From an uncultured Methanosarcinales archaeon (GTDB lineage Archaea > Nanobdellota > Nanobdellia > Woesearchaeales > JAGWAF01): a stretch of DNA of 32,000 nt. Below the pieces are notes generated by a model. The model was given only the letters and a program-made list of their open reading frames with translations. It searched no databases and was not told the DNA's origin. Positions within the stretch are counted from its first letter, which is position 1. Each line of letters starts with the position of its first letter. The translations under genes and the position numbers were made by a program. Location of the stretch: positions 11,966 through 43,965 of the forward strand of contig CAYPXA010000008.1 of NCBI GenBank assembly GCA_964414985.1. Direction: 5' to 3'. This document shows, in pieces, positions 5,714 through 11,356 of the stretch.

Positions 5714-6478
5714 TCAGGCTGCTTTCTTTGCCTTGACTTTGCCCTGCTGAATAATCTTATCGTAGTCATTCTTTGCATAATGAAGGTAGATGCTGCCAAT
5801 GCTTGCTGTTGAAGCCAGCTTTATCGGGCTTACTTCATAGCCAGTAATGCCCTTTTCTTTCAGGGTCTTATTCGCATCATCCGCAATCTTCTTGAATGCA
5901 GCCTCCCTCAAATCATACCTGTCTTCAGGTATAAGCATGTCTGAAAAATTGTTAAGCTCATTAACCCTTCTGACTGTTGAAACAGCCTCTATTATCTTTG
6001 CTGTTGCTGCAAAGCCCTTTCCTTTCTTTATGTCGCTCTTTATCTGCCCAATGATATCCTGCCTTGTGCTTTGTTCAAATGACTTCAGATAAAACATTAA
6101 GTGTTGGTAATTTTCTTCTTTATAGCCTTCTACGCCTGCCTGCATTGCAGGCATCATTGTGTTTGCAAAGTTTCTTAGCCAGTCTGTTGTTGCCTTGTCA
6201 TCAAGGTCGCCCTTGTTTTTGGAATGCTCATCATGCAGCTTTCCATAAAGCCCCTGCATTGCGCCTGCCTTCTTTCCAAACTCGAGCTCTGAAGAAATCT
6301 TGTTGTATTCAGAATCAATAACACCGGATTCAGTATGGCCCCTAAGCGCTGCCTGAGTGTGCTTTATCCTGTCAGCATCCTTCATCTGATGGACCTCGCC
6401 AGCGATAGTCTCAAGGTCTTTCCTGCTGATTGATGAATAGCTGCTCAATTCTCTGGGCTTTTTCTTTTCGCTTGCCAT
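5714..6478 (-). CDS. hypothetical protein (charged, helical, Lys-rich C-terminus)
   Basis: Long ORF with no competing sense ORF. The tracked start at 6487 is TTG; the first ATG (MASEKKKP) is at 6478. No family motif was recognised. Confidence 0.6.
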   Translation of the reverse strand: MASEKKKPRELSSYSSISRKDLETIAGEVHQMKDADRIKHTQAALRGHTESGVIDSEYNKISSELEFGKKAGAMQGLYGKLHDEHSKNKGDLDDKATTDWLRNFANTMMPAMQAGVEGYKEENYQHLMFYLKSFEQSTRQDIIGQIKSDIKKGKGFAATAKIIEAVSTVRRVNELNNFSDMLIPEDRYDLREAAFKKIADDANKTLKEKGITGYEVSPIKLASTASIGSIYLHYAKNDYDKIIQQGKVKAKKAA

Positions 6479-6618
6479 AATAATCAAATTGAATTTGCCT
6501 AATTTAAATGTTTCTATTTGAATAAACTAATAGCTTTCCTGCATATACTCTACAACTATGCTGACTATCTTTTTGACAATTTTATTGCAATTCAAAAACA
6601 TAGAAATATGATAAAAAT

Positions 6619-7269
6619 TCACGTTTGGCAGATTCCCAAAGCCTTCATTTTCCTGTGCAGGGTTTCATACCTTAGGCCTATGCTCCTTGCAGCCTTGGAC
6701 GCATTCATGCCGTTCTCCTGCATTGCCTTTGAAATAAACCTTTTTTCAAACTCTTCTTCAGCCTCTTTGAGGGTTAGCGGCTCCTGGGGCAGCTCCCGGA
6801 TAATGTCCTTTGAGATTTCCGCAACTCCGCCGTACATCTTTTTCATCTTCTTCGGGCTGATTATTGCCCTGTACTCTCCCAATGTTCCCTCAATTATATC
6901 CCTTACCCTGTCTTCTTGCACATAAGCCCTGCCAATCAGATTATCCCTTATGGATTCAGCGTCAATCTTCATTGAGGAAACCAGCCTGTGGATTGACCTC
7001 CTGTCGATTCCTGCAGAGTCTGCAGCCTTTGAAATGTTGCCCATGCTTGCCTGAATCAGCCTGGAAAGGTACTGCTTCCTGAACTTCTGCTTTGCCTTCC
7101 TAAATCCAAGAGAAGTGTCAATTTCCATGTCAAGAAGAGGGTTTGCAAGCCTGTCGGAAAGGTCATTCTCCATCTCGACAATCCTTGCGCCTATGAACTT
7201 CTGCATTGCGCTGTCTATAATAGGCTTGACTCTTGCCTTAACCACTTTTTCAAGGTCTTCGCGCGCCAT
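6619..7269 (-). CDS. DNA-binding protein with two Fis-type helix-turn-helix motifs
   Basis: Two copies of the Fis/NtrC C-terminal HTH pattern are present: KQYLSRLIQASMGNISKAADSAGIDRRSIHRLVSSMKI and KRFISKAMQENGMNASKAARSIGLRYETLHRKMKALGI. I prefer the start at ATG 7269 (MAREDLEK). The tracked ATG at 7302 sits directly on a TTTATAAA box (7292-7299) about 26 nt upstream of 7269, which would fit a leaderless transcript. Confidence 0.7.
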   Translation of the reverse strand: MAREDLEKVVKARVKPIIDSAMQKFIGARIVEMENDLSDRLANPLLDMEIDTSLGFRKAKQKFRKQYLSRLIQASMGNISKAADSAGIDRRSIHRLVSSMKIDAESIRDNLIGRAYVQEDRVRDIIEGTLGEYRAIISPKKMKKMYGGVAEISKDIIRELPQEPLTLKEAEEEFEKRFISKAMQENGMNASKAARSIGLRYETLHRKMKALGICQT

Positions 7270-7358
7270 GGCTTTCAAATAGCGCTTGGAGTTTATAAAC
7301 ATTATGACTTTTTTGTCCCACTTGCTTTTTAAGCCCAGAATCCCTATAAGCTCCAGTG

Positions 7359-7372
7359 TGACATTTTTGTCA
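7359..7372. promoter_or_regulatory. perfect inverted repeat TGACA-N4-TGTCA, putative operator in the divergent promoter region
   Basis: tgacattttt gtca reads identically on both strands. It lies just downstream of a TATA-like CCCTATAAG (7342-7350) and 6-20 nt upstream of the two candidate ATGs (7378, 7393). Confidence 0.4.
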
Positions 7373-7377
7373 TATCA

Positions 7378-7623
7378 ATGGAGGAAAACAAAATGGCAAA
7401 AAAACAGGAAGAGCAAAAAAAAGAGGGAAAGTCAAACGATTACCAGATTGGGTTCCATAGGGGAGCGCTTGAAACACTGATAAGAGAAAGGTCTGAAATG
7501 GCAAGGATTGTTTCAGTCGTAGAGCAGCTCATGCAGATGCATATCAAAGCAATGAAAGAGCTCGGAGTTGACCTTGCAGAGCAGGCAAAGGCAGCAAAAC
7601 CGCTGGAGTCAAAGCTGAAGTAA
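7378..7623 (+). CDS. small Lys/Glu-rich coiled-coil protein (76-81 aa), first gene of a 3-gene operon
   Basis: ORF MEENKMAKKQEEQKKEG... An alternative start at ATG 7393 is preceded by GGAGG (7380-7384). The stop TAA (7621-7623) is 1 nt before the next ATG. No family was recognised. Confidence 0.55.
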   Translation: MEENKMAKKQEEQKKEGKSNDYQIGFHRGALETLIRERSEMARIVSVVEQLMQMHIKAMKELGVDLAEQAKAAKPLESKLK

Positions 7624-7624
7624 G

Positions 7625-8449
7625 ATGTGCGGATACTGCAGCCAGGGCTATCAGGCAGGAGGAAATGCGAGGTATTCTTCATACAGCTCCTGCTCTGGAA
7701 GCTATTCAAGCCTTGAGTCTGCAGTAAAGGATTATGAGCCTGTTCAAATGCATTTTGTGTCAGAGCAGCATTCAGATAATGAGATGATTTGGCATCATGC
7801 ACAGCATGCACCTGTATATTCAGGAAGCAGGGGCTATTCAGGGCTTTACCTGCAGAAGCCAAGTGAATCATACAATTTCATGCCAGCGCATTTCCTTGCA
7901 GGAATAAAGACTGATGCTGTAAGCTCAAAGGATGAAGAGCAGAAAGGCATTGTAATGTCTATGGCAAGGGATGCATTCAAGGCTGCAACAGGAAAGGAAT
8001 TTCCAAATGACATCATTGTAAGGATTTGCACTGAATCAGAGCTGAAGAACGCCCACAGGGGCGAATGGAATCCTGGAATAACAGGTTTTAGCATCAACAG
8101 GAGGGGATTCGGGCAGAGCGAGGTTTTCGCAAAGGAAGATGAGCTTGCCCCATTGATGCTTACAATCGGCCACGAGATAGGCCACGTAATGACTCTGCCA
8201 ATGCCAAATCCTGTTGACGAGGAGGCAAAGGCATTTGCGTTTTCGCTTGCATGGATGGATGCGATAATTGCAGGCAACATAGGGGATATTTCGCATGCAA
8301 TAAAGCCAAGGCCTGCAGCAAACGGGCTGCACAATGTTGCATTCAGGCTTGTTTCTGAAAGCATGGCTCTTGGCAAAGAGGCAATTGAAGCATATTATGA
8401 AATAGTTTCAGGCAGCATCTCAATTGAGAAGACTATGCTTGATTTTTAG
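7625..8449 (+). CDS. putative zinc metallopeptidase, ImmA/IrrE-like (HEXXH), with low-complexity S/Y/G-rich N-terminus
   Basis: HEXXH motif TIGHEIGHVM is followed about 15 aa later by VDEEAKAFAFSLAWM. This resembles the E-x-x-A-x-x-FA segment of the COG2856/M78 family. The N-terminal ~100 aa is low complexity (CGYCSQGYQAGGNARYSSYSSCSGSYSS). The 1-nt gap from the upstream stop suggests translational coupling. Confidence 0.6.
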   Translation: MCGYCSQGYQAGGNARYSSYSSCSGSYSSLESAVKDYEPVQMHFVSEQHSDNEMIWHHAQHAPVYSGSRGYSGLYLQKPSESYNFMPAHFLAGIKTDAVSSKDEEQKGIVMSMARDAFKAATGKEFPNDIIVRICTESELKNAHRGEWNPGITGFSINRRGFGQSEVFAKEDELAPLMLTIGHEIGHVMTLPMPNPVDEEAKAFAFSLAWMDAIIAGNIGDISHAIKPRPAANGLHNVAFRLVSESMALGKEAIEAYYEIVSGSISIEKTMLDF

Positions 8450-8462
8450 AAGGAGGAAAAAA

Positions 8463-10352
8463 ATGGCAAAGAAAAAATCAGAAAAAAGTCAAAATCAAAA
8501 GGCAGCAAAGACTGCTTCAAAGCAGGAGCCTGCAAAGGAGTGCCCTGCACCGCAGCAAGGCATTATGCCCGGCATGCCGCCCAATCTTTCAAAGGAGGCG
8601 CAGGAAAAGCTCAAGGCAATCAAGGAAAAGCTTGACAAGTTCTCAAAGGAAGTCGTGAAAAAGTTTGAAAAATACATTATGGGAGTTGCGCTTCTGCCCC
8701 CTCCAAAGCCTGAAGAAGGAAAAAAGGAGGACAAGGAAAGCATCCATGTCCTTGTGCTTGTCGATGACAGCGACAGCCAGAAGATGACAAAGGCAGAGCT
8801 GAAGGAAAAGCTCTCATCCATAATTGAGAACATTGCAAAGGAGACAGACAAGTGCATGGTCACACAGACTGTAATACTTTCAGAGGTCTGGCAGAGCTGC
8901 TACGACGGCAAGCCTGACGCGCTCAAGGCAGTGGCATTTGCTGCGCCTGTCTATGACACAGGAATGCTTTCAGCAATAAAGATTGCAGAGCTCCACAAAA
9001 GCATGGTTCTGAAAAAGTTCGAGAAGTACATTGTAAGCTATGTGCTTGCAGGCTCGCTTGTCCAGGGAAGGGCAACACCCACTTCAGACATTGACGTCTG
9101 GATTGTTGTTGACGACACTGATGTCAAGAAGATGACCAGGGCAGAGCTCAAGGACAAGCTTAGGGCAATAATAATCGGAATGGGCATAGAAGCAGGAGAG
9201 ATGACTGGAATAAAGAACAAGCTGAATATCCAGGTCTATATCCTTACTGACTTCTGGGACAGCCTTAAGGAGGCAAACCCCATAATCTTCACCCTTTTGA
9301 GGGACGGAGTTCCGTTCTATGACAGGGGAGTGTTCATGCCATGGAAGCTGCTGCTGAAGATGGGCAAGATAAAGCCGTCAGCAGAGGCGATTGACATGTT
9401 CATGAGTTCAGGAGAGGGAATGCTGAAGAGGGTCCACTACAAGCTCAAGGACATAGGAATGGAAGACATGTTTTATGCGCTTCTGACTCCATCGCAGGCA
9501 GCGCTCATGCTTTTCGGGGTTGCTCCTCCAACGCCAAGGGAGACGCCAGAGCTGCTTAGGGACCTTTTTGTGAAGAAGGAAAAGATTCTTGAGGAAAAAT
9601 ATGTCCAGACTCTTGAAAGAGTCATAAAGCTAAGGAAGGACATCGAGCACGGCACAAAAGAGGAGGTTACAGGCGCTGAAATTGACGAGATACTCAAGGC
9701 AGCTGAAGCCTACCTTGAAAGGATAAAGAAGCTGTTTGAGCAGATTGAGGAATCCAAGCAGGAGGAGTCAATAGTCCATATTTATGAGACAATAACCACC
9801 ATAATAAGGGATGCCCTTGTAATGGAAGGAATTTCAAAGGTGCCTGAATCAGAGCTTGAAAAGCATTTCAGGGAGGAGCTTGTCTCAAAAGGAAGGATTC
9901 CTGCAAAGTTCCAGAGGGTGCTTCAGGACCTTGTCAAGGCAAAGAAGGACTATGATGCTGGAAAGCTCACAAAGTCTGAAATTGAGAATGTCAAGAAGGA
10001 GTCTTCAGCATTCATAAGGACTATTGTTGAGTACATGCAGAGGAAGAGAGGCAGGGAAATCGAGAAGACAAGGATGAGGATAAAGCACGGAGAAAAGTAC
10101 GGAGAGGTAATACTGCTCGGAACCCAGGCATTCATAATTGAGGATGTTGATGCAGAGCAGAAGTCTGTGCAGAAGGCAAAGCTGAACCCTGACGGAAGCC
10201 TCGGGCCTCTTGAGAAGTCTTCAGCAGAGGAGATGGAAGACTGCATTTCAAAGATAAGCGTGCCTGAAAGGGTTTTCATAAAGCAGCCTATTTTTGACGA
10301 CCTTAGAAAGCTGTTTGGAAAAGATGTTGAAGTCCAGGTAAACCTGCTCTAG
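8463..10352 (+). CDS. duplicated nucleotidyltransferase (Pol-beta superfamily) + HEPN-like domains protein
   Basis: ATG 8463 (MAKKKSEK) is preceded by AAGGAGG. An intact minimal-NTase motif is present: LAGSLVQGRATPTSDIDVWIVVDDTD. An upstream paralogous but degenerate copy reads KKFEKYIMGVALLPPP...IHVLVLVDDSD..KMTKAELKEKL, against KKFEKYIVSYVLAGS...VWIVVDDTD..KMTRAELKDKL in the intact copy. The helical C-terminal half contains an R-x4-H HEPN-like motif (LRKDIEHG). A second HEPN-like repeat lacks the R/H residues (KAKKDYDAG). Confidence 0.7.
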   Translation: MAKKKSEKSQNQKAAKTASKQEPAKECPAPQQGIMPGMPPNLSKEAQEKLKAIKEKLDKFSKEVVKKFEKYIMGVALLPPPKPEEGKKEDKESIHVLVLVDDSDSQKMTKAELKEKLSSIIENIAKETDKCMVTQTVILSEVWQSCYDGKPDALKAVAFAAPVYDTGMLSAIKIAELHKSMVLKKFEKYIVSYVLAGSLVQGRATPTSDIDVWIVVDDTDVKKMTRAELKDKLRAIIIGMGIEAGEMTGIKNKLNIQVYILTDFWDSLKEANPIIFTLLRDGVPFYDRGVFMPWKLLLKMGKIKPSAEAIDMFMSSGEGMLKRVHYKLKDIGMEDMFYALLTPSQAALMLFGVAPPTPRETPELLRDLFVKKEKILEEKYVQTLERVIKLRKDIEHGTKEEVTGAEIDEILKAAEAYLERIKKLFEQIEESKQEESIVHIYETITTIIRDALVMEGISKVPESELEKHFREELVSKGRIPAKFQRVLQDLVKAKKDYDAGKLTKSEIENVKKESSAFIRTIVEYMQRKRGREIEKTRMRIKHGEKYGEVILLGTQAFIIEDVDAEQKSVQKAKLNPDGSLGPLEKSSAEEMEDCISKISVPERVFIKQPIFDDLRKLFGKDVEVQVNLL

Positions 10353-10362
10353 GCAATCCTTG

Positions 10363-10389
10363 ATTTTTTCTTTTTTTGATTTTGTTTTT
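10363..10389 (+). terminator. oligo-T tract terminator region after the NTase-HEPN gene
   Basis: Successive T-runs (T6, T7, T4, T5) begin 11 nt after the stop codon. This is the typical form of an archaeal intrinsic termination signal. Confidence 0.5.
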
Positions 10390-10478
10390 CCTGCATTGCT
10401 TTTTTCTGCATAGAATTATATTCTTGATTTGCAATAAGCTTATATAGGATTCCAGCATTCTGCAGCATAGCAAAAGAG

Positions 10479-11030
10479 GTGGTAAACGTGGAAACAGGAT
10501 ACAAAGTCTGCGACGCAATGACAAAAAAGCCGGTAACTATTTCTCCTGGCAGCTCTATGCAGGAATGCGCAAGGCTGATGGCTGAAAGCCATGTCGGAGC
10601 GCTTGTTGTCCAGTCAGGCTCAAGCCTTGCAGGGCTTATCACAGAGCAGGACATTGTAAGGAAATCTGTAATACTCAATGATGCGCCTCATTCAAGAAAG
10701 GTTTCTGATGTCATGGAAAACAGGGTGCACACAATTTCGCCTGAAAAGGACATATTTGAAGCGCTGATTATGATGAAGGACCTAAACATTAGGCACCTTC
10801 CTGTAATGAACGGCAGCGAAATGGTCGGGCTTCTTACTCTCAAAGACATACTTAAGATACAGCCTCTTCTCTTTGACCTTCTTGTGGAAAAGTTCGAGAT
10901 TAGGGAGCAGGAGCGCAAGCCCATCAACAACCCTGAAGAATCAGGGGGAATATGCAGGGTCTGCGGAGAGTACTCTGAAAGCCTTGCAGTGCATGACGGA
11001 GTTCTTTCCTGCATTGACTGCAGGCAGTAG
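10479..11030 (+). CDS. CBS-domain pair protein with C-terminal zinc ribbon
   Basis: Two CBS repeats are present (VCDAMTKKPVTISPGSSMQECARLMAESHVGALVV...GLITEQDIVRK; VSDVMENRVHTISPEKDIFEALIMMKDLNIRHLPVM...GLLTLKDILK). The C-terminal ribbon is CRVCGEYS...LSCIDC. The start is ambiguous: GTG 10479, GTG 10488 (GAGGTG 6 nt upstream) or ATG 10518. A TATA-like CTTATATAGG lies at 10437-10446. Confidence 0.8.
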   Translation: MVNVETGYKVCDAMTKKPVTISPGSSMQECARLMAESHVGALVVQSGSSLAGLITEQDIVRKSVILNDAPHSRKVSDVMENRVHTISPEKDIFEALIMMKDLNIRHLPVMNGSEMVGLLTLKDILKIQPLLFDLLVEKFEIREQERKPINNPEESGGICRVCGEYSESLAVHDGVLSCIDCRQ

Positions 11031-11035
11031 CCAAA

Positions 11036-11356
11036 ATGGCAAAAAAGCTCAAGTTTTCAGGAGAGCTGATTGAAAGCATACTCAGCGGAAAGAAAACTTT
11101 CACCTGGCGCATCAACGACGACAAAGGCCTTTCTGAAGGAGATTTGCTGTCGCTATGCGACCTGCAGGGAATTCAGTTTGCAGAAGCAAGGATTGTTTCT
11201 GTAAATGAGCTGAAATTCAGCGAGCTTTCTGACGAAGAAAAAAAGCAGCACGGATTCAGTTCTGATGAAGAGATGTATGCTGCATTCTCAAAATACTACA
11301 GCGTGGAAGTAGGCCCTGAAACAATGCTCAAAATAGTTGAGTTCAAGGTTCTTTAG
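11036..11356 (+). CDS. ASCH (PUA-like) domain protein
   Basis: ASCH pattern: FSGELIESILSGKKTFTWRINDDKGLSEGDLLSL...AEARIVSV. The start is 5 nt after the CBS gene stop. Confidence 0.65.
   Translation: MAKKLKFSGELIESILSGKKTFTWRINDDKGLSEGDLLSLCDLQGIQFAEARIVSVNELKFSELSDEEKKQHGFSSDEEMYAAFSKYYSVEVGPETMLKIVEFKVL

What the first reader, a model, noticed from the sequence alone, without database searches (positions are those of the whole stretch)
7378..10352. Translationally coupled operon: small coiled-coil protein + ImmA/IrrE-like HEXXH protein + NTase-HEPN protein (candidate defence or toxin-antitoxin-like module)
Three same-strand genes are packed with 1-nt and 13-nt spacers. A strong oligo-T terminator appears only after the third gene. 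The middle protein combines a disordered S/Y/G-rich N-terminus with an HEIGH metalloprotease core resembling ImmA/IrrE. ImmA/IrrE are sensor proteases that cleave repressors in mobile elements and stress responses. The third protein carries minimal-NTase and HEPN-like (R-x4-H) domains, the pair that forms MNT/HEPN toxin-antitoxin and abortive-infection modules. I do not recognise a described system with this combination (small helical protein, ImmA-like protease, fused duplicated NTase-HEPN, and a divergent HTH gene). It is the best candidate in the window for an uncharacterised conflict or regulatory system. The downstream CBS-Zn-ribbon and ASCH genes (10479-11356) may or may not belong to it.
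Basis: partly seen in the sequence, partly recalled or inferred. Interest (0 to 1): 0.62.

Follow-up and report, generated by a model that had tools for sequence, protein, structure and literature searches.

The report
Core DPANN NTase-HEPN gene cluster
The three packed genes are real, but they are not a mobile defence or toxin-antitoxin cassette: they are a lineage-specific arrangement of vertically inherited genes of tiny DPANN archaea, built around a nucleotidyltransferase-HEPN protein of unknown function that every genome sampled from the phylum carries.

Summary
Three same-strand genes have 1-nt and 13-nt spacers, and an oligo-T cluster follows only the third.

- **C (629 aa)** has a dead NTase, a live NTase, a live Rx4H HEPN, a dead HEPN and a β domain. 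It was found in 301/301 sampled genomes of the phylum, with one full-length copy plus a short paralog. It is about 60-70% identical across families, like an aaRS. It fits the DPANN "MNT fused to HEPN, house-keeping context" family listed by Makarova et al. 2019.
- **A (76 aa, helical)** is in 248/301 genomes. Elsewhere it lies beside RIO1, PUA and DRG genes.
- **B** keeps an invariant HExxH…EE core. It is a compact orphan zincin family in 82/301 genomes, and it is not Peptidase_M78.
- **The divergent tandem Fis-HTH gene** (99/301 genomes) follows B's distribution. A TGACA-N4-TGTCA palindrome is enriched upstream of the HTH and C genes.

These genes recur next to each other in shuffled arrangements, so a functional link is likely. 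A CBS/Zn-ribbon gene is C's commonest neighbour.

My reading is a chromosomal housekeeping module, probably related to RNA or translation, with a local regulator. First readers of this scan had already noted look-alike C proteins in other genomes. The biochemical function remains unknown.

The parts
6619..7302 (-). Tandem Fis-type HTH protein (227 aa), divergent from the operon; probable local transcription regulator
   Evidence: It has two HTH_8 stretches, E 6e-14. It is present in 99/301 genomes, in the same families as B. It lies within 3 kb of B in about 14 genomes, directly upstream of C in f22 genomes and upstream of A in others.
7359..7372 (.). Perfect palindrome TGACATTTTTGTCA in the 90-nt divergent promoter region, between a TATA-like CCTATAAG box and A's start; candidate operator of the HTH protein
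   Evidence: locate it. The motif (<=1 mismatch) is found upstream of C in 18/76 loci versus 29/1078 background windows. It is found upstream of HTH genes in 10/24 loci versus 64/539 background windows, p = 4e-4, at recurring offsets.
7393..7623 (+). Gene A: 76-aa alpha-helical protein (core QIGFHKGALTTLAKER...VEQLMQMHIKALKDLGVDLE), a near-core gene of the phylum
   Evidence: Homologues are 58-70% identical and support the start at 7393. It is present in 248/301 genomes as a single copy. It has no Pfam or PDB relative. Where it is dispersed it lies beside PUA/Tma20-like, DUF371, RIO1 and DRG genes.
7625..8449 (+). Gene B: 274-aa protein with a disordered S/Y/G/C-rich N-terminus (about residues 1-80) and a gluzincin-like HExxH...EE domain (85-274); an orphan metallopeptidase-like family
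   Evidence: H183, E184, H187, E199 and E200 are invariant in 42 sequences. AF2 pLDDT is mostly above 90 for residues 85-274. Foldseek gives no significant PDB match, and the weak top hits are mostly gluzincins. It has no Pfam hit of its own and no PDB sequence hit. There are 407 representatives in 1.84e9 proteins. It is present in 82/301 genomes, clade by clade.
8463..10352 (+). Gene C: 629-aa protein with a basic disordered tail, a degenerate NTase, an active-type NTase, an Rx4H HEPN bundle, a degenerate helical bundle and a C-terminal beta domain; a universal gene of the phylum
   Evidence: It is present in 301/301 genomes and in at least 586 species genomes. Foldseek matches ANT/KNTase enzymes, HalB and the HEPN protein AF0298. 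The PDB profile search hits a UPF0332 protein. The internal duplications are shown, and the invariant catalytic motifs.
10364..10405 (+). Cluster of four T5-T7 runs; probable archaeal terminator of the A-B-C transcript
10479..11030 (+). CBS-pair plus C-terminal Zn-ribbon protein (183 aa) with its own TATA-like box; the most frequent neighbour of C
   Evidence: CBS domain, E 8e-27. It lies downstream of C on the same strand in 29 of 80 C-anchored loci and in L003/L004.

Best explanation
This is a chromosomal, vertically inherited housekeeping gene cluster of a Woesearchaeales-type DPANN archaeon. It is not a mobile conflict system.

Shown:
- C is the phylum-wide MNT-HEPN fusion protein, with one full-length copy per genome. 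It reads as a single-chain pseudo-dimer of the KNTase/ANT type: one dead and one live NTase domain, then one live (Rx4H) and one dead helical bundle.
- A is a near-universal 76-aa helical protein.
- B is a clade-restricted, catalytically intact-looking zincin with a disordered S/Y/G-rich tail.
- The tandem Fis-HTH gene follows B's distribution.
- All of these, plus a CBS/Zn-ribbon gene and a short NTase-HEPN paralog, recur next to one another in different orders in different families.

Inferred:
- C is an NTP-using enzyme that nucleotidylates and/or cleaves an RNA, or an RNA-associated protein, in translation or ribosome-related housekeeping.
- A is its small partner, and the CBS protein couples it to adenine-nucleotide levels.
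- The HTH protein represses its own gene and the A-B-C operon (C alone in other genomes) through the TGACA-N4-TGTCA operator.
- B is a lineage-specific accessory that processes one of the partners (A, C's basic tail or the HTH protein).

In this genome the three genes are translationally coupled as one transcript that ends at the oligo-T cluster.
For: - Universality and conservation of C: 301/301 genomes; at least 586 species genomes, all Woesearchaeota/Nanoarchaeota; 60-62% identity in genomes where AspRS is 36-71% and TFB 75-87%.
- A is in 248/301 genomes. B is in 82/301, clade by clade, and is single-copy in all but one of them.
- Flanks of C are variable and of housekeeping type. GC content is uniform across the window. 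There are no PHROG or PADLOC system hits.
- Shuffled but persistent linkage: A-B-C in f1 and f4; A-C without B in G103, G057 and G263; B followed by A in G108, G213 and G294; HTH next to B in about 14 genomes; HTH directly upstream of C in f22; paralog/HTH divergent pairs.
- 69/82 B genomes carry HTH, against 30/219 genomes without B.
- Operator enrichment.
- Fold of C and its invariant GS/DxD and Rx4H motifs.
- A's dispersed copies lie beside RIO1, PUA/Tma20-like, DUF371 and DRG GTPase genes.
- Literature: DPANN-specific 'MNT fused to HEPN ... typically in house-keeping context' (PMC6393860).
Against: - No biochemical or transcript data exist.
- Co-occurrence counts are not corrected for phylogeny.
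- B occurs without HTH in a whole family (f9), and HTH occurs without B in 30 genomes, so no pair is obligate.
- In many genomes A, B and C are fully dispersed (for example G009).
- The operator motif is present in only about a quarter of C promoters and is not found upstream of dispersed A genes (1/20).
- The C model has low pTM (0.47), so the pseudo-dimer packing is not established.
- The RNA/translation link rests on A's neighbours only.
- The identity of C with NEQ050 is inferred from architecture and map position, not from sequence comparison.
Confidence: 0.7

Rival explanations
1. One reading: a mobile defence, abortive-infection or classical toxin-antitoxin cassette. An ImmA-like sensor protease would control an MNT/HEPN effector.
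For: - MNT and HEPN domains with intact motifs.
- Weak PADLOC domain-level hits to candidate systems, PDC-S09.
- Foldseek similarity to the defence NTase HalB and to MNT-HEPN complexes.
- The pairing of an HExxH protein with an HTH gene resembles ImmA/ImmR.
Against: - C is in 301/301 genomes with one full-length copy each, and is conserved like an aaRS.
- A is in 248/301 genomes.
- B follows clades rather than being sporadic.
- Flanks are of housekeeping type and GC content is uniform.
- There are no integrases or phage genes nearby, and no PHROG hits.
- B has no M78 match above threshold.
Confidence: 0.05
2. A domesticated type VII-like toxin-antitoxin. C would be a self-controlled HEPN RNase whose fused NTase AMPylates it, or a partner, according to ATP supply. 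That would throttle translation when the symbiont is starved of host nucleotides, with the CBS protein sensing adenine nucleotides.
For: - Fused MNT and HEPN with invariant catalytic residues.
- The MntA antitoxin model gives a weak hit, E 7e-5.
- The structure of an AMPylated HEPN-MNT complex (7ae9) is among the fold matches.
- The CBS gene is the commonest neighbour.
- Makarova et al. derive the family from TA modules.
Against: - The residues after Rx4H are G-T, not the x-Y AMPylation site of HepT as I recall it.
- The best fold matches are ANT/KNTase enzymes, in which the helical domain serves the NTase site rather than acting as a nuclease.
- The short paralog has lost the Arg of Rx4H.
- No activity data exist.
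Confidence: 0.15
3. An ImmA/ImmR-like switch without M78 membership. B would cleave the tandem-HTH repressor in response to a signal and so derepress C and A.
For: - B and HTH share their family distribution: 69/82 B genomes have HTH.
- They lie within 3 kb of each other in about 14 genomes of many families, often as HTH then B on one strand.
- An operator-like palindrome sits in HTH and C promoters.
- B keeps an intact HExxH...E site.
Against: - Family f9 has B but no HTH.
- 30 genomes have HTH but no B.
- In f4 genomes the A-B-C operon is unlinked from HTH.
- B's commonest neighbour is A rather than HTH.
- The HTH is Fis-type, not XRE-type.
Confidence: 0.2
4. The juxtaposition has no functional meaning. 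Three unrelated conserved genes would happen to be packed together in this streamlined 1.1-Mb genome.
For: - The genes are dispersed in many genomes, for example G009 and G297.
- DPANN genomes are compact, so short spacers are common.
Against: - Adjacency recurs in several different orders and orientations across families. For genes in genomes of about 1.2 Mb, roughly 0.5% per pair would be expected by chance, against 14/69 observed for HTH-B and at least 22/82 for B-C.
- The coupling is tight, with a 1-nt spacer and a GGAGG-containing spacer.
Confidence: 0.07

Closest known systems
DPANN-specific conserved family cls.004259 (NEQ050), 'MNT fused to HEPN', in Makarova, Wolf & Koonin 2019 (PMC6393860)
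   Same: It is an MNT-HEPN fusion confined to DPANN, unusually conserved, in housekeeping context and of unknown function. A Nanoarchaeum-sized single-contig genome (G058) has its C-like ORF at about 43-44 kb, roughly where gene number 50 would lie.
   Different: The paper gives no architecture beyond MNT+HEPN and names no partners. Here the long form is resolved into five domains with internal duplications. A short paralog is separated from it, and partners (A, B, HTH, CBS) and a candidate operator are described. Equivalence with NEQ050 was not shown by sequence.
Type VII toxin-antitoxin HepT/MntA (HEPN RNase neutralised by MNT AMPylation)
   Same: The same two domain families, with intact GS...DxD and Rx4H motifs.
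   Different: C is fused into one 629-aa chain with an extra dead copy of each domain and a beta domain. It is universal, has one full-length copy per genome and is not patchy. No Tyr follows Rx4H. C is accompanied by a zincin, a small helical protein and a CBS protein.
KNTase/ANT aminoglycoside nucleotidyltransferases: ANT(4'), AAD(9), AadA
   Same: These give the best structural matches (Foldseek E 1e-4 to 1e-3, prob 1.0). They share the NTase domain followed by a helical bundle that completes the active site across a dimer. NCBIfam ANT(9) gives a weak hit.
   Different: The score is far below the family cut-off (33 versus 340 bits). C looks like a single-chain pseudo-dimer. Nothing suggests an antibiotic substrate in a DPANN archaeon.
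ImmA/IrrE (Peptidase_M78) with its repressor (ImmR/DdrO)
   Same: An HExxH protein with a downstream Glu ligand is genomically associated with an HTH regulator, and an operator-like palindrome is present.
   Different: There is no M78 profile match above threshold. No ImmA/IrrE structure appears among the fold hits. The Glu lies 12-13 residues after the second His. The HTH is a tandem Fis type, and the pairing is not obligate.
Hailong HalB (defence NTase that makes oligodeoxyadenylate)
   Same: KNTase-like fold match, E 6e-4.
   Different: There is no HalA-like channel partner. C is universal and sits in housekeeping context.

Membership tests
Peptidase_M78 (ImmA/IrrE) | Match to the PF06114 profile at or above the gathering score | tested here: not met
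   The window protein has no hit. Three of 42 family members hit, with best E 0.11.
Peptidase_M78 (ImmA/IrrE) | HExxH plus a downstream Glu as the third zinc ligand | tested here: met
   H183, E184, H187, E199 and E200 are invariant in 42 sequences. This motif is generic to gluzincins, so it is not diagnostic.
Peptidase_M78 (ImmA/IrrE) | Structural similarity to solved ImmA/IrrE domains | tested here: not met
   Foldseek against the PDB gave no match at E <= 0.001. The weak top hits are mostly ACE, M3 and thermolysin-type gluzincins, and no IrrE or ImmA appears.
Peptidase_M78 (ImmA/IrrE) | Obligate pairing with an adjacent XRE-type repressor gene | tested here: not met
   The partner is a tandem Fis-type HTH. 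It is adjacent in about 14 of 69 co-occurring genomes. Family f9 has B without it.
MNT-HEPN (type VII) toxin-antitoxin | MNT with GS...DxD and HEPN with Rx4-6H | tested here: met
   G197, S198, D209, D211, R391 and H396 are invariant. UPF0332/HEPN hits appear.
MNT-HEPN (type VII) toxin-antitoxin | Two separate small genes forming a toxin/antitoxin pair | tested here: not met
   C is a single 629-aa chain with duplicated domains.
MNT-HEPN (type VII) toxin-antitoxin | Patchy, often multi-copy, horizontally mobile distribution | tested here: not met
   C is in 301/301 genomes, with one full-length copy plus one conserved short paralog each.
MNT-HEPN (type VII) toxin-antitoxin | Toxicity of HEPN relieved by MNT-catalysed AMPylation | not testable with these tools
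   This needs expression and mass spectrometry.
DPANN cls.004259 (NEQ050-type MNT-HEPN fusion) | MNT fused to HEPN, conserved across DPANN, in housekeeping context | tested here: met
   The flanks are aaRS, TFB, tRNA, peroxiredoxin, PDH and similar genes.
DPANN cls.004259 (NEQ050-type MNT-HEPN fusion) | Sequence orthology to NEQ050 itself | tested here: inconclusive
   A 0.5-Mb single-contig genome (G058) has a 541-aa C-like ORF at 42,949-44,052 (E 1.5e-43).
KNTase/ANT nucleotidyltransferases | NTase domain plus C-terminal helical bundle fold | tested here: met
   Foldseek matches 6xz0, 7uy4, 6p01 and 1kny at E 1e-4 to 1e-3, prob 1.0.
KNTase/ANT nucleotidyltransferases | Family-level sequence membership (NCBIfam ANT models) | tested here: not met
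   ANT(9) scores 33 bits against a cut-off of 340.
Known anti-phage defence systems (PADLOC) | Hits to the component models of a described system | tested here: not met
   A and B have no hits. C has only weak NTase-domain hits to candidate PDC models.

The most novel reading that the evidence does not exclude
C, A, the CBS/Zn-ribbon protein and (in some families) B and the tandem HTH would form a DPANN-specific, essential nucleotide-dependent RNA-control machine. C would be a single-chain pseudo-dimeric NTase-HEPN enzyme that tags or cuts a translation-related RNA according to the cell's (host-supplied) adenine-nucleotide status. A dedicated zincin and a repressor would set its level. This would be a former toxin-antitoxin pair turned into a core regulator of symbiont physiology.
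Probability: 0.12. Interest if true: 0.8.

Novelty: new variant of a known kind. Interest (0 to 1): 0.45.

Why it matters
DPANN archaea have very small genomes, yet every genome sampled here keeps a 620-aa enzyme-like protein whose function nobody knows. It is as conserved as a tRNA synthetase. This window gives that protein a testable context:
- a defined five-domain architecture with one live and one dead copy of each catalytic domain;
- a small, almost equally widespread partner (A);
- a frequent CBS partner;
- a lineage-specific orphan metalloprotease (B);
- a probable regulator with a candidate operator.

If the function is worked out, it would fill one of the few phylum-wide gaps in DPANN biology. 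It would also show how a toxin-antitoxin pair can be domesticated. As a defence-system lead, however, the finding does not hold.

Tried and rejected
1. **C or its paralog as the CCA-adding enzyme.** Rejected: the genome has a canonical archaeal CCA enzyme (441 aa, PF09249 at 119 bits).
2. **A shared A/B/C regulon through the palindrome.** Only C and HTH promoters are enriched. Dispersed A genes are not (1/20).
3. **Hidden, divergent B relatives next to C in other genomes.** A B-core HMM run with filters off found none in 80 loci. The two other HExxH-like upstream clusters are unrelated to B.
4. **'KKAA'-ended basic proteins as a regular module member.** Only 4 of 80 loci have one.
5. **Sequence searches of A and B against PDB, Pfam, NCBIfam, PADLOC and PHROGs.** Nothing was significant for the window proteins.
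6. **Literature.** Only the 2019 dark-matter paper mentions the family. A search for 'NEQ050' returned only unrelated DOIs. The DPANN protein-family paper (PMC8204110) does not mention it.
8. **Supplement of PMC6393860.** It has no entry for the cluster ids.


Full report
**Observation.** The junctions are TAA-g-ATG between A and B, and TAG-aaGGAGGaaaaaa-ATG between B and C. After C's stop there are four T5-T7 runs within 55 nt. Inside the operon there are only three isolated T5 runs. The CBS gene has its own TATA-like TTATATA. Alignment of ten homologues moves A's start to the second ATG at 7393 (76 aa, with GGAGG 8 nt upstream). C starts at ATG 8463 (629 aa).

**Host.** The window encodes TFB, AspRS, tRNAs, an AI-2E transporter and similar genes. 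Homologues of B and C come from Woesearchaeota/Nanoarchaeota MAGs. The assembly is 1.12 Mb and 97% complete. GC content is flat across the window.

**Protein C.**
- Pfam sees only a weak NTP_transf_2 match at residues 185-231.
- A profile of 26 homologues hits the UPF0332/HEPN protein AF0298 at residues 318-412 and aligns C's R391-K-D-I-E-H396-G with the HEPN motif.
- The AF2 model (pLDDT 74, pTM 0.47) shows two NTase-like alpha/beta domains, two helical bundles and a C-terminal beta domain.
- Foldseek matches ANT/KNTase enzymes (AAD(9), ANT(4'), AadA; E 1e-4 to 1e-3), Hailong HalB and AF0298 (TM 0.80, rmsd 2.3 Å). MNT-HEPN TA complexes rank lower.
- The two NTase units are 34% identical (E 6e-19). 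The first has lost GS and DxD (SDIDVWIVVDD versus ESIHVLVLVDD).
- The two bundles are weakly related (E 0.002). RKDIEH has become KKDYDA in the second.
- G197, S198, D209, D211, R391 and H396 are invariant.
- Nearly every sampled genome also shows a second, weaker match. In G000 it is a ~271-aa paralog of residues 182-427. In this genome it lies beside TYW3 and a DOT1-like methyltransferase and lacks the Arg of Rx4H.

**Distribution.** The same sample of 301 high-quality genomes of the phylum was used each time.

| Gene | Genomes with a match | Notes |
|---|---|---|
| C | 301/301 | Other orders included, at E 1e-43 to 1e-200 |
| A | 248/301 | Single copy |
| B | 82/301 | Only in the window's order; clade-wise: f4 22/24, f12 23/36, f3 5/6, f15 0/12, f16 0/10 |
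| Tandem HTH | 99/301 | Same families as B |

In the same five genomes C is 60-62% identical, AspRS 36-71%, TFB 75-87%, B 33-42% and HTH 37-47%. C therefore behaves as a core gene.

**Literature.** Makarova, Wolf & Koonin (2019, PMC6393860) list DPANN-specific conserved dark matter. [quoted passage not shown] They remark on its unusual conservation compared with TA systems. They also list an alpha-helical family, NEQ484. A 0.5-Mb single-contig genome in the sample has its C-like ORF at about 43-44 kb. That is consistent with gene number 50, but the identity could not be proven. I found no later characterisation.

**Protein B.**
- The C-terminal 190 residues fold confidently (pLDDT mostly >90). 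The helix bearing HEIGH is followed by a helix that begins with the invariant D-E-E-A-K-A-F-A-F. This is the gluzincin layout. Residues 1-80 are disordered and rich in S, Y, G and C.
- Foldseek gives no significant PDB match. The weak top hits are mostly gluzincins of the ACE, M3 and thermolysin types.
- There is no PDB sequence relative at E <= 10.
- There is no Pfam hit for the window protein. Among 42 members only sub-threshold M48 (3), M78 (3, best E 0.11) and SprT (2) matches appear.
- An exhaustive profile search of 1.84 billion representatives finds only 407 proteins, 293 of them at E <= 1e-30. The family is compact and orphan.
- It is not ImmA/IrrE by any test I could run.

**Linkage.** Three B-anchored look-ups all showed the small/B/C order. 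Of 80 C-anchored loci, only 4 have A and B upstream, and one more has A alone. Comparing coordinates across the censuses gave these arrangements:
- A-B-C in f1 and most of f4.
- A directly abutting C without B in G103 (the window's own family), G057 and G263.
- B followed by A in G108, G213 and G294.
- C divergent from B in G195.
- All three dispersed on one chromosome in G009.
- HTH within 3 kb of B in about 14 genomes of many families.
- HTH directly upstream of C in f22 genomes and in L069.
- HTH upstream of, or divergent from, A in G075, G010, G163 and G298.
- HTH often divergent from the short paralog.

69 of 82 B genomes carry HTH, against 30 of 219 genomes without B (not corrected for phylogeny). 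C's most frequent neighbour is the CBS/Zn-ribbon gene, downstream on the same strand in 29 loci. When dispersed, A lies beside PUA/Tma20-like (10/20), DUF371 (7), RIO1 (4) and DRG GTPase (3) genes. That is a translation and ribosome-biogenesis context.

**Operator.** The perfect palindrome TGACATTTTTGTCA (7359-7372) was noted earlier by the scan. It lies between a TATA-like box and A's start, in the 90-nt divergent region.
- With at most one mismatch, the motif occurs upstream of C in 18/76 loci versus 29/1078 background windows.
- It occurs upstream of HTH genes in 10/24 loci versus 64/539 (p = 4e-4). With an A/T spacer the counts are 8/24 versus 27/539. The offsets recur at -49/-50 and -13/-18.
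- It is not found upstream of dispersed A genes (1/20).
- Many exact hits inside C are a coding coincidence of the SDIDV codons.

**Mechanism.**
- Shown: the anatomy, distribution, conservation and linkage above.
- Inferred: C is an NTP-using enzyme with one composite active site in a single-chain pseudo-dimer. It works with A and the CBS protein in an RNA or translation-related housekeeping task. The HTH protein autoregulates and controls C (here the whole operon). B is a lineage-specific processing protease for one of the partners.
- Still open: whether the HEPN moiety cuts RNA, or only serves the NTase site as in ANT enzymes.

**Rejected ideas and limits.** The CCA-enzyme idea was tested and rejected. 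There are no viral or defence-system signatures.

**Verdict.** The ImmA and defence/TA framing is wrong. The core of the finding is a known but uncharacterised DPANN-wide family. What is new is its partner set, the orphan zincin family and a candidate operator. First readers of this scan had already noted look-alike C proteins in other genomes.

Noticed in passing
G000:C2:112553-113263 (L088:1411-2226): A short (271 aa) paralog of C's live NTase and first helical bundle. A second, weaker C-like match appears in nearly every genome of the phylum sample. Here it lies between a DOT1-like methyltransferase and TYW3, and it has Ser in place of the Arg of Rx4H. In other genomes it is often divergent from the tandem-HTH gene.
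   Followed up: partly
L084:5918-6457 and 10 other C-anchored loci: A ~165-208-aa protein with no Pfam match (MASNNPVPCGMIQYTGLFDFDTLY...) recurs one or two genes downstream of C on the same strand in 11 of 80 loci. It is absent from this window.
   Followed up: no
window 5714-6487 (-): A 257-aa Lys-rich protein ending in ...KAKKAA. Similar basic proteins ending in KKAA lie just upstream of C in 4 of 80 other loci. It has no known domain.
   Followed up: partly
L112:2221-4053; also L108, L117, L120: A conserved string RIO1 kinase / A / DUF371 / PUA(Tma20-like) in genomes where A is not next to C. This places A in a ribosome-biogenesis and translation neighbourhood.
   Followed up: partly
L067:1270-2700 (-), L058:1742-2950 (-): Two other families of 400-500-aa proteins, one with an HEFAH motif, occur two or three genes upstream of C in a few loci. 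They are not related to B by profile search.
   Followed up: partly
G053 contigs C20 and C30: This genome has two A-B pairs on two contigs. That could be strain heterogeneity, a duplication or a binning artefact.
   Followed up: no
table (e.g. G232, G144, G053, G134): About a dozen HTH matches in other genomes are reported with one or two in-frame stop codons. This may be alignment overrun at the gene ends or real disruptions. I did not examine it.
   Followed up: no
window 11036-11356 (+): The ASCH-domain gene after the CBS gene is not a recurrent neighbour of C (0 of 80 loci).
   Followed up: yes
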